Below, piece by piece: positions 43,148 to 47,690 of a DNA stretch of 64,000 nt. Made by a program: the position numbers and the translations under genes. The stretch spans positions 640,001 to 704,000 of the forward strand of contig CBDBHB010000009.1 in assembly GCA_965205505.1 (NCBI GenBank), given 5' to 3'. How positions within the stretch are numbered: the first letter of the stretch is position 1; every line of letters starts with the position of its first letter. The stretch comes from Acidobacteriota bacterium (GTDB lineage Bacteria > Acidobacteriota > UBA890 > WLXD01). The notes under the pieces were generated by a model. That model did no database searches and was not told the DNA's origin. It worked only from the letters and a program-made list of their open reading frames with translations.

Positions 43148-45100
43148 ATGCGGCGCGTTATCACAGGAGCTCGCTGGCTCGGCATCATTGGCTTGCTGAT
43201 CTGCGCGTTGCCCACCGCGGCGTAGGAGGGCGCGCTGCCGGCTGTGGCACAGGTCGAGGACGCGGAGCCCGTCGCGGTGCGCGGCCCGGTCGACCCGGCG
43301 CATCTGGAAGCCTTCTTCGATGGCCTCATGGCGGCGCAGCTCAAGGACCACCACATCGCCGGTGCCACCGTCGCCGTGGTGCGCGATGGTGCGGTGCTGC
43401 TGGCCAAAGGCTATGGGTTCGCCGACGTCGAAAACCGTCGCCGGGTGAGCCCCGACACGACGTTGTTTCGCATCGGCTCGATCTCCAAGACGTTCGTGTG
43501 GACGGCGATCATGCAGCTGGTGCAGCAGGGTCGGATCGATCTCGACACCGATGTCAACGAATACCTCACCGATCTCGAGGTGCCGGCCACCTGCGACGAA
43601 CCGGTGCGCCTGCGGCACCTGATGACCCACACCCCCGGATTCGAGGATCAGGTGATCGGGTTGTTCGCTCGCGACGAGACCAGCCTGGCGCCCCTCGAGG
43701 TGATCCTCCAACGCGAGCTGCCCGACCGGGTTCGCCCGGCCGGTGACGTGTCCTCGTACTCCAATCACGGCACCGGTATCGCCGCGCTCATCGTCGAGGA
43801 GGTTTCGGGGCTGGCGTGGAACGACTACGTCGAGCGGCACATCATCGAACCTCTCGGGATGATCCACACGACGTTCCGGCAGCCGTTTCCGGCAGCGCTC
43901 GATGCCGTGATGTCGATGGGTTACAGCTGGAACGGGACCGGCTTCGAGGAGGAGGACTTCGAGTTCGTCCCGCTCGCACCGGTGGGCGCGGCTGGCGCCA
44001 CTGCCGCCGACATGGCGCGCTTCATGATTGCCCATCTGCAGCTCGGGGTTCTCGATGATGTGCGCATTCTCGACGAGTCGACGGCGCTGCGGATGCAGGG
44101 AGAGCTGTTCAGACACGCCGATCGCATGCACCCGATGGCCCATGGCTTCTACGAGATGGGCACGAACGGCGAGCGCGCCCTCGGACACGGGGGTGACACG
44201 CTCTGGTTCCACTCGGACATGGCGCTGCTTCCGGCACACGGGGTCGGTCTCTTCGTGTCGTTCAACAGTGCTGGAGGCGGTGGCGTGACCAGCGACGTGT
44301 ACCACGCGTTCATGAACGAGTACTTCCCGATCGACGATGCGTCCGAGTTGACCGCGCCTGCCGACTTCGCCGTACGTGGGCAACGCTTTGCCGGTCGCTA
44401 CCGCACCAACCGTTATTCGCACAGCACGCTCGCCAAGCTGACGGCCCTCGGGGCAGCGAAGGTGAGCGTTACCGAGGACGGCGAAGCGTTGGTCACGAGC
44501 GCCACCGGCGCGACGCGTTGGGTCGAGGTGGCGCCGCTGACGTTCCGTGAGGAGCACGGTCAGCGTCTCATTGCCTTCCGCCAGGATGACGACGGCGAGA
44601 TCACCCACCTGTTCCTCGGATGGGTGCCGGTGGTGGCGCTCGAGCGCATCGGCCTGACTGGCAACCCCATGCTGCACGCGGTGATCGCGGTGAGCTCGCT
44701 GGTGCTCTTCATGGGCGCTGCCTTGCTCTGGCCCGCCGCCGCAGCGCTGCGTAGGAAGCACGGATACAGGCTGCCACCCCATCGCCGCATGCCCCTGCTG
44801 ACGAAAAGCGCGGGCTGGCTCGGCAGCGTGCTGTTTCTCACGTTTGCCGCCATGCTCGCGATGTTGACGAGCGATCCGATCCAGATCGTCTTTGGCGCCG
44901 CCCCGTTGCTTCCGGTGGCGTTGACCCTGCCTCTACTGGCGACCCCGGTGGTGGCCGCGGCGATTTACCTCTGTGCCAAGTCGTGGCGCCGGCGAAGAGG
45001 CAGCTTCACGGCACGCCTGGCGTACACGTTGCTGGCCATCGCCTTCGCCGCCACACTGTGGCAGCTCTGGTACTGGAACCTGCTCGGCTACAGGTACTGA
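43148..45100 (+). pseudogene. Serine hydrolase (beta-lactamase/PBP-like) with C-terminal TM helices; in-frame TAG after the signal peptide
   Basis: ATG 43148 after GGAGG; TAG at 43223; FRIGSISK, SYSN, GHGGD motifs. Confidence 0.8.
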
Positions 45101-45149
45101 CTCGCAGGCCACTTCTAAGAGAAGGCCTAGTTCGGTCAAGGGCAATGTG

Positions 45150-45345
45150 GTGCCCAGCGAAGAATCGATCTGCACGGCATGCTCGTATTCGCACTCTGGT
45201 GGACGAGGATTCAGGTCGTCCGGTGCATTCTGGGGTCCGTCCCGATTCGAGGCGCTGCAATCTAGCTGCCGAGCTCGAAGCTCGTAGTGACCTTCGCAGT
45301 CGCCCGGACCGGGCGGTCAGATCGATAACCGTTGGGTCGCGTCGC
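45150..45345 (-). ncRNA. Putative bridge/seek RNA of the IS110 element
   Basis: Structured ~250-nt region 3' of the transposase containing GGTCACT and GCTAGA, which match the two insertion-site flanks; boundaries approximate. Confidence 0.65.
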
Positions 45346-45373
45346 CCTACCGACCTCCTGGTTGCGGGTTAGT

Positions 45374-46420
45374 TCATGCTGCTGAAACCTCTACAGGTGC
45401 GCGCAACGGTTCGTACTCGTCTCCACTCAGCCACAGTCGGTGCAGCACAACGGCGAGCTTACGGGCGACAGCAACTGCTGCCTTTTTGTTGCCATGAGGA
45501 CCACCGCGTCCGGCCAGCTTGAGCCCCCAGCGTCTGAGCTCAGTATCGGGCCCGAAGGGGCCCAGGATGTAATGCGCCGAGCCCACCAACAGGCGTCGGA
45601 GCATTTTGTCGCCCGCCTTGGTTATTCGTAGCGCAGGGTCCTTGTCCCCCGACTGCCGTTTCTTCGGTCTCAGTCCCAGGTACGGGCCCACGGCTCTGGA
45701 GGTATTGAACCGCTCCGGCTCCTCGAGCGTCAGCACATACGCCAGTGCGGTCAGAGCTCCGACCCCGGCCACTTGCTGGAGCTGCTGTGTCTCCGGGTAT
45801 CGCCCCTGGCACAGCTGCACGATCTGACGCTCGTATTGCTGGATGTTGCCCGTCAGCATGGCGATCGTTTCAAGCACCGGCTCGAGCGCTCCCTTGAGCC
45901 GCTCCGGTATGTGCTCTGGCGCGGTGCGCGCGAACGCCGGCGTCGAGCACCTGGGAATACGACAACCGGCCGACTTGACCGCACCACGCACATGGCTCAC
46001 CAACTGCGTGCAGCTCTTTACCAGAGCATCTCGGCTCCGAATCACGGCTAGATCCGCTCGCGCTTGTCTGCCTCGATGCTGCACCGTCTTAAGCAGCTTT
46101 GGGTCCATTCTGCCCACTCGTGCCAGGTGCTCGGCATCCAACCGGTCGGTCTTGTCGTGCTCGCCATAGATCAGCTTCAGCCGCCTCGGGTTAGCCACCA
46201 GCACCTCATGACCCAGTTGCTTCAACTGCTCACTCATCCACGGCGAGCGCGTTCCAACCTCCAGCACTACTCGAGCGGGCTCCTCGCACCCGAACCGCCT
46301 CGCCAGCCCCTCCGGGCTCGTCCTCACCCGCCCTTCCTCCATCACCCTGCCCTTACTGTCGAGCACGCACATACGGCTGTACCGGTCGCTTACGTCCAGT
46401 CCAATCGTTACACTTGTCAT
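45374..46420 (-). CDS. IS110 DEDD recombinase/transposase
   Basis: IGLDVS, VLEVG, KTDRLDA, GVGALTA, YLGLRPKKRQSG, AVAVARKL. Confidence 0.95.
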   Translation of the reverse strand: MTSVTIGLDVSDRYSRMCVLDSKGRVMEEGRVRTSPEGLARRFGCEEPARVVLEVGTRSPWMSEQLKQLGHEVLVANPRRLKLIYGEHDKTDRLDAEHLARVGRMDPKLLKTVQHRGRQARADLAVIRSRDALVKSCTQLVSHVRGAVKSAGCRIPRCSTPAFARTAPEHIPERLKGALEPVLETIAMLTGNIQQYERQIVQLCQGRYPETQQLQQVAGVGALTALAYVLTLEEPERFNTSRAVGPYLGLRPKKRQSGDKDPALRITKAGDKMLRRLLVGSAHYILGPFGPDTELRRWGLKLAGRGGPHGNKKAAVAVARKLAVVLHRLWLSGDEYEPLRAPVEVSAA

Positions 46421-46421
46421 C

Positions 46422-46505
46422 GGCCAACCTCCTTGGGCTTCGAGCCCGTTACGTTTGAAGAAACGTTTGCAGAGCCGTCAGGCTACTGCGTTCAGGAGGT
46501 TGGCC
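46422..46505 (-). promoter_or_regulatory. 12-bp inverted repeat sequestering the transposase RBS
   Basis: GGCCAACCTCCT pairs with AGGAGGTTGGCC immediately before the ATG. Confidence 0.7.
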
Positions 46506-47690
46506 TTCTCATCTCATCTAGCGTGTGCCCTCGATAAGCACCGTATCGATCAGCGCACCTTCGAGGACTGCCTCGACCGTGTCCATGCCCTCGATCACCT
46601 CGGCGAAGATCGTGTAGTCGAAGTCGAGGCGCACGTTGTCGATCAGGTTGACGAAGATCTGCGCGTCGCCGGTATCGCGGCCGCGCGTGGAGATGCCGAC
46701 CGTGCCGCGCAGGTGCGAGCGGTCGGTGATCTCGTCGCGCGTGTAGGGGCCGTCGCCGGCGAACTCGTTGGCGCCTGGGCTCCCCCCCCTGGATCACGAA
46801 GTTGGGCACCACACGGTGAAACGTCAGCCCGTCGAAGTAACCCTGGCGGGCCAGCCGCACGAAGCGCGCTGTGTTGGAGGGTGCGTCGAACGGGTACAGA
46901 CGCAGCGCGAACTCGCCCCCGCCCCGCATACGTACCACGGCGCGGATCTCCTCGATCTCCCCGATCTCCTCGGCACTTGGGAAAGGGGAGGGCGGCAGCG
47001 GCTGCGGGTCGGGCGCAGGCCGCCTTCCGGTCCAGTGCTCGAGAACATCGGCGGCCGCCGCGGCGATGATGGGATCGAAGTCTCGCAGGTAGGCGCCGAC
47101 TGCCTCGGCCTTGTCTGCAGAGCCCAGGCTGCCGATGGCCTCCAGCAGTGCACGGCGTGGAGCGCGCGAGGTCTCACGCTCGAGTGCGGTCACCCGCTCG
47201 AGCGCTGCCAGCAGCTGCTCGACCGGCTGCGCGCCGCCGGTCAGTGCAGCGGCGGCAGCCATCAGTAGCTGCCCGTCATTGCTGGCGAGTACGTTGAGGT
47301 AGAGCTCGTCGCCGGCGTGCCCCGCAGCCGCGCTCAGCCCTGGAATAGCGATTGCCGCGACGTTCGGATGCTTGTCGGCAGCCAGCAGGCGGAGCAGGTC
47401 GACCCAACCGGACGCTGTGGCAGCATGGGCGGCGTACATTCGCATCTGCCACGTCGGGTGATGGCTGGCGGATTCGGCGCGCCGGCGGGCGAGCGCCGCG
47501 TCCAAGGTTGCCAGCGCCACGAGCGCGTGAGCGGGCTCATGCCAGTTGGCCTCGTTTACCGCCTCGATGTTGCTGGCGATCCGGTCCAGGGTCGCGATTG
47601 TGCCGTCACAGCCGGCGAGCGCATCAATCGTCAGCAGTCGAACGGCGGCGACCGCGTCACGGAGTCCGGCGAGCAGTCGCGAACAGGCGC

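What the first reader, a model, noticed from the sequence alone, without database searches (positions are those of the whole stretch)
45107..46522. IS1111-type element whose RNA guides can be read against its own insertion site
Seen (minus strand): the reconstructed empty target is CAC-GCTAGA-AGTGGCC. The non-coding region 3' of the transposase reads GACTGCGAA-GGTCACT-AC-GAGCTTCGAGCTC-GGCA-GCTAGA-TTGCAGC. GCTAGA (45261-45266) equals the left flank plus core. GGTCACT (45286-45292) is complementary to the right flank AGTGGCC with one G-U wobble. The two sit either side of a small hairpin, inside a CTGCGA/TTGCAG closing stem. A TTGACC hexamer lies just inside the right end. Known: IS110/IS1111 recombinases use bridge/seek RNAs. 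Inference: an intact programmable recombinase with predicted target GCTAGAAGTGRCC. I could not find donor-matching guides.
Basis: partly seen in the sequence, partly recalled or inferred. Interest (0 to 1): 0.72.

Follow-up and report, generated by a model that had tools for sequence, protein, structure and literature searches.

The report
IS1111-type insertion sequence with bridge RNA
This is one copy of a multi-copy IS1111-type jumping gene whose own small RNA reads the DNA site it inserts into, a mechanism already described for this family, here aimed at the ends of another small mobile repeat.

Summary

**What it is.** A 1406-bp IS1111-group insertion sequence on the minus strand, with about 28 full-length copies in this genome. 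It has an intact 348-aa DEDD transposase, 11-bp subterminal inverted repeats and a roughly 150-nt bridge/seekRNA in the 3' non-coding region.

**Target guides.** By position homology they are AGGUCACU (45286-45293) and CAGCUAG (45262-45268). In 79 non-redundant relatives, the guides at these positions track each element's own flanks:
- the T guide matches at 7 of 8 or better in 61/79, against 137/6162 cross-pairs;
- the B guide matches at 6 of 7 or better in 53/79, against 255/6162 cross-pairs.

**True target.** The empty target is nCT-AG-TGGCCT, with AG as the shared core. The string CTAGTGGCCT occurs 109 times in the genome. The target is the end of a roughly 270-bp MITE-like repeat.

**Donor guides.** AU+extension+core is identical to the element's own right end in 91/104 relatives, falling into five covarying classes. 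A weaker 5-nt guide faces the left end.

**State of the window copy.** It carries two private substitutions in the donor side of the RNA.

**Verdict.** A new member of a known kind.

The parts
46520..46521 (-). Left target flank, the conserved CT. T46520 with core AG forms the TAG stop of the upstream cyclophilin gene.
   Evidence: In 28 unique left flanks, position -1 is T in 27 and position -2 is C in 25. Nothing further out is conserved.
46518..46519 (-). Core dinucleotide AG, left copy
   Evidence: AG is present at both junctions in this genome: 27/28 left and 20/20 right unique flanks. Most relatives also have it, and two have AA/AA at both junctions.
46513..46517 (-). Left-end extension ATGAG, between the core and the left inverted repeat
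   Evidence: ATGAG in 26/28 unique left junctions.
46502..46512 (-). Left subterminal inverted repeat ATGAGAAGGCC
   Evidence: An inverted-repeat search in 80 related loci found the ATGAGA-type repeat pair in 56; coordinates.
45374..46420 (-). Transposase/recombinase gene, 348 aa, with DEDD RuvC-like and Transposase_20 domains
   Evidence: PF01548 at 3.2e-17 and PF02371 at 5.4e-17. NF033542 'IS110 family RNA-guided transposase' at 201 bits. D9/E54/D92/D95 are invariant. The GLRPKKRQSG motif is present.
45174..45323 (-). Bridge/seekRNA region, comprising the target-binding module and then the donor-binding module
   Evidence: Covariance model R1 scores 106.3 bits, E 2.2e-32. Structure covariation is 0.312 against 0.114 in shuffles, reached by 0 of 500 shuffles.
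45286..45293 (-). Target guide T, AGGUCACU. It pairs with the top strand AG-TGGCCT with one rU-dG wobble.
   Evidence: identical in 23/23 copies examined.
45271..45283 (-). Apical hairpin between the two target guides
   Evidence: helix 2 shows changes on both sides at 3 of 4 pairs.
45262..45268 (-). Target guide B, CAGCUAG. It is identical to the top strand of the left flank plus core; only CU-AG is matched consistently.
45230..45234 (-). Donor guide facing the left-end extension (CCCAG); matches 3 of 5 here
   Evidence: In a fixed register, 55/85 relatives match at 4 of 5 or better, against 1177/5026 cross-pairs; table.
45182..45188 (-). Donor guide for the right end, i.e. the last two bases of the right repeat, the 3-nt extension and the core. 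The window copy reads AUACGAG; the other 22 of 23 copies read AUAGGAG.
   Evidence: Public-run contigs read the consensus base at 45185 and 45177.
45134..45139 (-). TTGACC, a -35-like hexamer facing outward across the right end
   Evidence: TTGAC is present in 77/79 relatives, and lies 16-17 nt before the end of the right repeat in 68/79.
45117..45127 (-). Right subterminal inverted repeat GGCCTTCTC[T]T. The consensus base is A at 45118.
   Evidence: The base is A in 17 and T in 6 of 23 copies.
45114..45116 (-). Right-end extension AGA, which belongs to the element and not to the target
   Evidence: It covaries with the donor guide in relatives.
45112..45113 (-). Core dinucleotide AG, right copy
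45105..45111 (-). Right target flank TGGCCTG
   Evidence: TGGCCT in 20/20 unique right flanks, with one A at +3. Contigs of other runs diverge from the window at 45105/45106.

Best explanation
This is a 1406-bp IS1111-group insertion sequence that moves by RNA-guided, site- and orientation-specific recombination.

**The RNA.** Its 3' non-coding region encodes a roughly 150-nt bridge/seekRNA with two modules.
- In the target module, a long closing stem ends in GACUGCG...AUUGCAGC. It holds an internal loop in which AGGUCACU and CAGCUAG flank a small hairpin.
- AGGUCACU pairs with the top strand of AG-TGGCCT, with one U-G wobble.
- CAGCUAG pairs with the bottom strand of the left flank plus core. 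Only CT-AG is used consistently.
- In the donor module, CCCAG and AUAGGAG (AUACGAG in this copy) flank a second stem-loop. They face the extensions that lie between the subterminal inverted repeats and the core at the element's left and right ends.

**The reaction.** The DEDD recombinase, loaded with this RNA, exchanges strands at the shared AG core between the joined ends of an excised circle and the target CT-AG-TGGCCT. That target is the outer edge of a roughly 270-bp MITE-like repeat.

**What is shown.** The anatomy, the copy number, the target consensus, guide-to-target and guide-to-end covariation across relatives, and structure covariation.

**What is inferred from the published family mechanism.** RNA-protein binding, the circular intermediate, strand exchange at AG, and the junction promoter.
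For: - **Family.** Pfam PF01548 and PF02371 and NF033542.
- **Copies.** 28 full-length and 4 partial loci in the genome. 10 have an uninterrupted 348-aa ORF.
- **Junctions.** 29 left and 28 right junctions all show CT-AG|ATGAG...AGA-AG|TGGCCT.
- **Empty sites.** CTAGTGGCCT occurs 109 times and CTAGAAGTGGCC 0 times.
- **End architecture.** X-AG-ATGGG-IRL...IRR-GGA-AG-Y is conserved in relatives.
- **Guides against own flanks, unanchored search.** B of 5 nt or more in 17/45 and T of 5 nt or more in 24/45, each against 55/1894 cross-pairs.
- **Guides against own flanks, position-homologous.** B at 6 of 7 or better in 53/79 against 255/6162. T at 7 of 8 or better in 61/79 against 137/6162.
- **Donor right-end guide.** 7 of 7 in 91/104, in five covarying classes: ATGGAAG 76, ATAGAAG 11, ATAGAAA 2, ATGGCAG 1, ATGGGAG 1.
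- **Donor left-end guide.** 4 of 5 or better in 55/85 against 1177/5026.
- **Covariance model.** It finds the RNA in 78 of the 79 sources searched, 80 matches in all because one locus gave two. 90% of cells are paired, and covariation is 0.312 against 0.114 in shuffles, reached by 0 of 500 shuffles.
- **Published layout.** The order T-then-B with overlap in the target matches what is published for IS1111 seekRNAs (PMC11187229, sections 8-10 and 14 read). [quoted passage not shown]
Against: - No direct evidence of RNA, RNP, circle or transposition. Contigs of four public runs showed no end-to-end joint. Contigs cannot show RNA ends.
- No sigma-70-like promoter was found in the linear element, and I found no convincing -10 partner for TTGACC across the junction.
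- In this element the left target guide matches only 2 nt plus the core consistently.
- The left-end donor guide matches 3 of 5.
- The family's right-end donor guide needs a G-T wobble. The window copy adds a C-C mismatch.
- Some relatives match poorly. For the B guide, 13 of 79 score 4 of 7 or below. Most of these, by eye, are one-base register shifts at elements with an offset extension.
Confidence: 0.9

Rival explanations
1. The short matches are chance. The recombinase protein alone recognises the terminal repeat of the MITE-like element, and the 3' non-coding region has another role, such as regulating the transposase mRNA.
For: The matches in this one element are short: 8 nt with a wobble, and effectively 4 nt. 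A single element cannot exclude chance. The left guide shows no clear preference beyond CT.
Against: At the same RNA positions in 79 non-redundant relatives with different targets, the guides follow each element's own flanks. T is 8 of 8 in 27 and 7 of 8 in 34. B is 7 of 7 in 30. Cross-pairs reach these levels in 2-4% of cases. The layout equals that of seekRNAs shown experimentally to direct IS1111 elements (PMC11187229, sections 9 and 10 read).
Confidence: 0.03
2. The conserved right flank is part of the element. On this view the mobile unit is a composite that extends into AGTGGCCTGTAACAG..., and there is no specific target.
Against: 145 copies of AGTGGCCTG stand without the element, most preceded by CT. 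Right flanks diverge after 9 nt in several copies, including the window's own. The repeat is a separate roughly 270-bp element with its own inverted ends, flanked by CTAG. Relatives in other genomes have unrelated right flanks that match their own T guides.
Confidence: 0.02
3. The family is active or was recently active, but this particular copy is crippled in cis. Its own RNA carries a mismatch in the right-end donor guide and its right inverted repeat has the minority base, so it could move only with RNA supplied by sister copies.
For: AUACGAG is found in 1 of 23 copies against AUAGGAG in 22. A second private change lies 8 nt downstream. The minority T at 45118 is shared with 6 of 23 copies. 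18 of about 28 copies already have broken ORFs, so the family is decaying.
Against: The ORF and the target module are intact. Tolerance of donor-guide mismatches is unknown for this subfamily. The family consensus already uses a wobble, and the left-end donor guide matches only 3 of 5 in all copies, yet the family reached about 28 copies.
Confidence: 0.35

Closest known systems
IS1111-group elements with experimentally shown seekRNAs: ISEc11, ISPa11, ISKpn4, ISPst6 (Siddiquee et al. 2024, PMC11187229)
   Same: - DEDD transposase of 330-350 aa with the GL-P----S/TG motif.
- Subterminal inverted repeats with short terminal extensions.
- A long non-coding region downstream of the transposase gene.
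- A small RNA in which the top-strand-complementary match lies 5' of the bottom-strand match, with the two overlapping in the target.
- Orientation-specific insertion.
- ISPa11 likewise targets a genomic repeat (a REP).
   Different: - Different lineage: relatives are named from Acidobacteriota, Gemmatimonadota, Chloroflexota and other metagenome-assembled genomes.
- Different target: CT-AG-TGGCCT at the edge of a MITE-like repeat.
- No experimental data.
- That paper reports target matches only. Here a second module facing the element's own ends is read from covariation.
IS621 / IS110-group bridge RNA (Durrant et al. 2024, PMC11208160; PDB 8wt6)
   Same: - A bispecific RNA with a target-binding and a donor-binding module, each with two guides that meet at a shared core dinucleotide.
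- A DEDD recombinase.
[quoted passage not shown]
   Different: - The RNA lies 3' of the gene, not 5'.
- The guide order is reversed.
- The inverted repeats are long and subterminal.
- The core is AG rather than CT. The IS621 core is recalled, not taken from a call.
- Protein similarity is remote: E 2.7e-07 to IS621 and 1.7e-08 to ISCro4.
[quoted passage not shown]
   Same: An IS1111-type element whose specific target is the terminal repeat of another mobile element.
   Different: The host element here is a roughly 270-bp MITE-like repeat flanked by CTAG, not a Tn3-family transposon. The crossover lies at the outer edge, inside the flanking CTAG, rather than inside the repeat.
ISPpu9/ISPpu10 of Pseudomonas putida (PMC12288879, passages read)
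   Same: REP-targeting members of the IS110 family that recombine at an invariant AG dinucleotide at both ends and form circles.
   Different: ISPpu9 belongs to the IS110 group and has no subterminal repeats. It has a strong native promoter and extra small RNAs. None of these is seen here.

Membership tests
IS1111 group of the IS110 family | DEDD (RuvC-like) transposase with PF01548 and PF02371, about 330-350 aa | tested here: met
   Both domains found. NF033542 scores 201 bits against a cut-off of 140. The protein is 348 aa. D9/E54/D92/D95 are invariant in 29 homologues.
IS1111 group of the IS110 family | GL-P----S/TG motif in the C-terminal domain | tested here: met
   GLRPKKRQSG at residues 249-258. 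The motif is as described in PMC11187229, section 6.
IS1111 group of the IS110 family | Subterminal inverted repeats of 7-17 bp with short terminal extensions | tested here: met
   ATGAGAAGGCC / GGCCTTCTCAT, 11 bp (10 of 11 in the window copy). They lie 5 nt and 3 nt inside the core.
IS1111 group of the IS110 family | The long non-coding region lies downstream of the transposase gene | tested here: met
   About 260 nt lie 3' of the stop codon (45114-45373) and about 97 nt lie 5' of the start.
IS1111 group of the IS110 family | Site- and orientation-specific insertion without a target duplication beyond the shared core | tested here: met
   All junctions read CT-AG|...|AG-TGGCCT, always with the right end next to the repeat.
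seekRNA / bridge RNA-guided recombinase | Two target-matching segments, one per strand, overlapping at the crossover. In IS1111 elements the top-strand match lies 5'. | tested here: met
seekRNA / bridge RNA-guided recombinase | Guides change with the target across relatives (natural reprogramming) | tested here: met
   T at 7 of 8 or better in 61/79 against 137/6162 cross-pairs. B at 6 of 7 or better in 53/79 against 255/6162.
seekRNA / bridge RNA-guided recombinase | A donor-binding module complementary to the element's own ends | tested here: met
   At subfamily level the right-end guide is 7 of 7 in 91/104 with five covarying classes, and the left-end guide is 4 of 5 or better in 55/85 against 1177/5026. 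In the window copy the guides are imperfect, at 4 of 7 and 3 of 5. The genome's consensus copy pairs 7 of 7 with one G-T wobble.
seekRNA / bridge RNA-guided recombinase | The RNA is made, binds the recombinase and is required for movement; a circular intermediate with joined ends forms | not testable with these tools
   Only assembled contigs of public runs were on hand. They show the element in two libraries labelled as RNA but show no joint. The output itself warns that this does not show transcription.

The most novel reading that the evidence does not exclude
This subfamily gives the first natural 'code table' for the donor side of an IS1111-type bridge RNA. One guide reads AU plus the 3-nt right extension plus the core. 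A second reads the 5-nt left extension. So the short extensions outside the subterminal repeats, and not the repeats themselves, are the RNA-read part of the donor.

In this genome the element thrives with a minimal and wobble-tolerant code: 2+2 nt on the left, 6+2 nt with an rU-dG wobble on the right, and an rG-dT wobble on the donor. That lets it home on every outer edge of a CTAG-flanked MITE, whatever lies outside it. It is an RNA-guided parasite of another mobile element.
Probability: 0.45. Interest if true: 0.5.

Novelty: new member of a known kind. Interest (0 to 1): 0.3.

Why it matters
It shows that the seekRNA/bridge-RNA reading frame can be recovered from sequence alone for an uncultured soil lineage. 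It corrects how such targets should be rebuilt: the terminal extensions and one core copy belong to the element.

It also offers a natural data set for asking how short and how mismatch-tolerant IS1111 guides can be. That set is about 28 insertions, 109 unoccupied sites and roughly 80-100 relatives with different guides.

The donor-side covariation may help to design donors for IS1111-type recombinases. For these, published experiments changed target guides and donor flanks but did not map donor guides (PMC11187229, sections 9, 10 and 14 read). The mechanism itself is already known.

Tried and rejected
- **Rfam.** A scan of 44800-46800 at E up to 10 gave only a chance tfoR match (12.9 bits against a gathering score of 70) outside the element. 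No Rfam family matched this RNA.
- **Same-genus genomes.** 4 searched; none holds the element. Of the four loci fetched with the left flank, I could read the junction in two. The closest, G004, has no CTAGTGGCCTG stub at the orthologous site, so it is not a clean empty site.
- **RNAalifold on the raw MAFFT alignment.** It recovered only the two invariant stems, because the hairpins were misaligned. I then built a covariance model with a hand-set structure. The resulting alignment leans towards that structure. Helix 4 is only 68% paired.
- **Public runs.** Contigs of 2 libraries labelled metatranscriptomic and 2 others hold the element, but no end-to-end joint was seen. This does not show that the element is transcribed, that circles form, or that they do not.
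- **Promoter scan of the linear element.** 0 sites. By eye I found no convincing -10 hexamer downstream of TTGACC across the joined ends, so the junction promoter stays an inference.
- **First automatic extraction of the left-end donor guide.** It used a poor register and gave a weak signal: 31/87 at 4 of 5 or better, against 927/5296. A fixed register relative to the GCAC stem gave the figures used here.
- **PDB search by sequence.** Only remote IS110-group entries were found, and no IS1111-type structure.
- **Unused tools and closed files.** I did not use structure prediction, complex prediction or the protein atlas; no claim needed them. Supplementary files of the papers were closed, so the published seekRNA folds and ISfinder-wide target tables could not be compared with this element.
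Full report
**1. What is in the sequence**

On the minus strand the window holds a 348-aa ORF (45374-46420). It carries DEDD_Tnp_IS110 (PF01548, 3.2e-17) and Transposase_20 (PF02371, 5.4e-17). It also matches NCBIfam NF033542, 'IS110 family RNA-guided transposase', at 201 bits against a cut-off of 140.

The four acidic residues D9, E54, D92 and D95 are invariant in an alignment of 29 homologues. The C-terminal GLRPKKRQSG fits the GL-P----S/TG motif given for IS1111 transposases (PMC11187229, section 6 read).

The TTGACC hexamer is at 45134-45139.

**2. Copies and boundaries**

The genome that holds the window has 5.98 Mb in 9 contigs. It carries 28 full-length or near full-length copies at 98-100% identity, plus 4 partial loci.

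- Ten copies have an uninterrupted 348-aa ORF, the window copy among them.
- Of the 23 copies that carry both exact end anchors, 11 lack four bases (ACAA) inside the gene.
- The four same-genus genomes searched have no copy.

The junctions tell a clear story.

- All 29 left and 28 right junctions read ...nCT-AG-ATGAG-ATGAGAAGGCC... and ...GGCCTTCTC(A/T)T-AGA-AG-TGGCCTG....
- Among 28 unique left flanks, only T at -1 (27/28) and C at -2 (25/28) are conserved.
- Among 20 unique right flanks, TGGCCT is invariant apart from one A at +3.
- The right flank often runs on as TGGCCTGTAACAGATGATCGTTGC.... That sequence also stands 145 times without the element, and there it is mostly preceded by CT.

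So the empty site is nCT-AG-TGGCCTG. CTAGTGGCCT occurs 109 times in the genome.

The element is 1406 bp counting one AG. It has 11-bp subterminal inverted repeats lying 5 nt (left) and 3 nt (right) inside the core.

**3. Relatives**

A profile of 29 homologous transposases pulled 80 loci from species-representative genomes and 80 from metagenome contigs, at 49-70% protein identity. The named records are mostly metagenome-assembled genomes of Acidobacteriota, with Gemmatimonadota, Chloroflexota, Planctomycetota and others.

Among the first 80 loci, 56 have the same ATGAGA-type inverted repeats. They also share the end layout X-AG-ATGGG-repeat...repeat-GGA-AG-Y. Two elements have AA at both junctions instead. 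X and Y differ from element to element.

**4. The target-binding module**

In all these elements the 3' non-coding region contains this layout:

GACUGCG - (0-5 nt) - guide ending in CU - hairpin - guide of 5 nt plus AG - AU(G/U/A)GCAGC

I ran two tests, each with cross-paired controls in which the RNA of element i is scored against the flanks of element j.

| Test | Guide | Own flanks | Cross-pairs |
|---|---|---|---|
| Unanchored search for exact matches anchored at the core | Left flank + core, 5 nt or more | 17/45 | 55/1894 |
| Unanchored search | Reverse complement of core + right flank, 5 nt or more | 24/45 | 55/1894 |
| Position-homologous, 79 non-redundant elements | 3' guide against left flank + core, 7 of 7 | 30/79 | – |
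| Position-homologous | 3' guide, 6 of 7 or better | 53/79 | 255/6162 |
| Position-homologous | 5' guide against perfect complement of core + right flank, 8 of 8 | 27/79 | – |
| Position-homologous | 5' guide, 7 of 8 or better | 61/79 | 137/6162 |

Thirteen elements score 4 of 7 or below for the 3' guide. Several of these (for example L065, L068, L166, L191) are visibly one-base register shifts at elements whose extension is offset.

This is the arrangement published for IS1111 seekRNAs. The top-strand-complementary match lies 5' of the bottom-strand match, and the two overlap in the target (PMC11187229, sections 9, 10 and 14 read).

In the window element the homologous guides are these.

- **AGGUCACU (45286-45293).** It pairs with AG-TGGCCT at all eight positions if one rU-dG wobble is allowed. 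The single insertion next to TGACCT would be a perfect match.
- **CAGCUAG (45262-45268).** Only CU-AG is matched consistently.

The final A of GCTAGA belongs to the conserved AUUGCAGC closing sequence.

All 23 copies examined have an identical loop.

**5. The donor-binding module**

Downstream lies a second conserved unit:

GGA(C/U) - 5 nt - NNNU - GCAC - hairpin - GUGC-G-R - AU + 3 nt + 2 nt

**The 3' guide.** These seven bases equal the last two bases of the right repeat, the right extension and the core. The match is 7 of 7 in 91 of 104 elements.
- Of the 13 misses, 9 are wrong picks by my pattern.
- 3 are 6 of 7.
- 1 is the window copy.
- The guides fall into five classes that change together with the ends: ATGGAAG 76, ATAGAAG 11, ATAGAAA 2, ATGGCAG 1 and ATGGGAG 1.

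**The 5' guide.** This 5-nt segment tends to be the reverse complement of the left extension.
- It matches at 4 of 5 or better in 55/85, against 1177/5026 cross-pairs.
- It matches at 5 of 5 in 9/85, against 67/5026.
- Rare ends match exactly: TTTAC, CTCAA, TCCAA.
- This support is moderate, not strong.

**In this genome.**
- 22 of 23 copies read AUAGGAG, which pairs with the right end ATAGAAG through one rG-dT wobble. The window copy alone reads AUACGAG.
- A second private change lies at 45177.
- Contigs of four public runs read the consensus base at both places.
- The left-end guide CCCAG matches ATGAG at only 3 of 5 in all copies. The closest fetched relative (L141, 70% identity) does the same.

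[quoted passage not shown] So this module is expected in kind.

**6. RNA structure**

The 264-nt 3' region folds with z = -2.2, and the 106-nt core with z = -2.1. Both place the two guides in an internal loop around the hairpin.

A covariance model built from 32 compact relatives found the RNA in 78 of the 79 sources searched. It gave 80 matches in all, because one locus gave two. Scores ran from 57 to 123 bits; the window scored 106.3 bits at 45174-45323.

On that alignment 90% of cells are paired, against 79% in shuffles. The covariation score is 0.312 against 0.114, reached by 0 of 500 shuffles. Slid controls give 0.03-0.10.

The alignment was fitted to the model's structure, so these figures lean towards it. 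Helix 4 is only 68% paired.

**7. The target repeat**

TGGCCTGTAACAG... is the inverted end of a roughly 270-bp repeat flanked by CTAG. I found 11 complete examples, some with this insertion sequence at one end.

My look agrees as far as it went.

The element thus inserts inside the flanking CTAG, at the outer edge of another mobile element. That explains why the left flank is unconstrained.

In the window the site is a short stub between two convergent genes. The TAG stop of the cyclophilin gene is formed by T46520 plus the left core copy, so the insertion leaves both genes' reading frames as they were.

**8. Expression and movement**

- No sigma-70-like promoter is seen in the linear element.
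- TTGAC is present in 77/79 relatives. It lies 16-17 nt before the end of the right repeat in 68/79.
- This fits the outward -35 of a junction promoter, as reported for the family (PMC11187229, section 8; PMC12288879, passages). I could not name a convincing -10.
- Contigs from two libraries labelled metatranscriptomic hold the element. That does not show transcription, and no circle junction was seen.

**9. Verdict**

This is an ordinary but well-preserved IS1111-group element, with an RNA guide that can be read in full.

- The mechanism is known.
- The element, its subfamily-wide guide table and its MITE-edge target are new instances of it.
- Donor guides exist.
- The window copy has a slightly damaged donor guide.

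Noticed in passing
window 45105-45111 and genome-wide (e.g. G000 C6:142647-142916): A roughly 270-bp repeat with inverted ends TGGCCTGTAACAGATGATCGTTGC..., flanked by CTAG. AGTGGCCTG stands 145 times without the insertion sequence. Two internal sequence variants exist (...CGCAGATGGGATTTG and ...CGTGGTGGCGAAATG).
   Followed up: partly
window 46757-46780, minus strand: The cyclophilin-type isomerase gene upstream of the element is read in two frames. Pfam profile positions 5-55 fall in the frame of 47520-46780 and positions 75-139 in the frame of 46757-46521. This suggests a frameshift or an assembly error between them.
   Followed up: partly
G000 copies, at the position of window 46152-46158: 11 of the 23 copies examined lack four bases (ACAA) in the transposase gene. 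Only 10 of about 28 copies keep the full ORF. The family is decaying after a recent burst that is absent from the four same-genus genomes searched.
   Followed up: partly
G000 C9:2875342-2875445: A solo 100-bp left-end fragment (95% identity) with a second left-repeat anchor in inverted orientation about 90 nt away. A contig of run X4 shows the same odd junction.
   Followed up: no
G000 C8:891214-892378: One copy has an internal deletion: element positions 2-703 and 1066-1416 lie 117 nt apart.
   Followed up: no
L097:3573-3741 (+) and L097:5658-5826 (-): One related locus holds two inverted copies of the bridge-RNA region with equal scores, which suggests two elements in opposite orientation within 2 kb.
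   Followed up: no
window 43244-45100, plus strand: A 618-aa ORF with a beta-lactamase-fold domain (PF00144, 1.1e-57) and a hydrophobic C-terminal half ends 5 nt from the element's right target flank. It is convergent with the cyclophilin gene.
   Followed up: no
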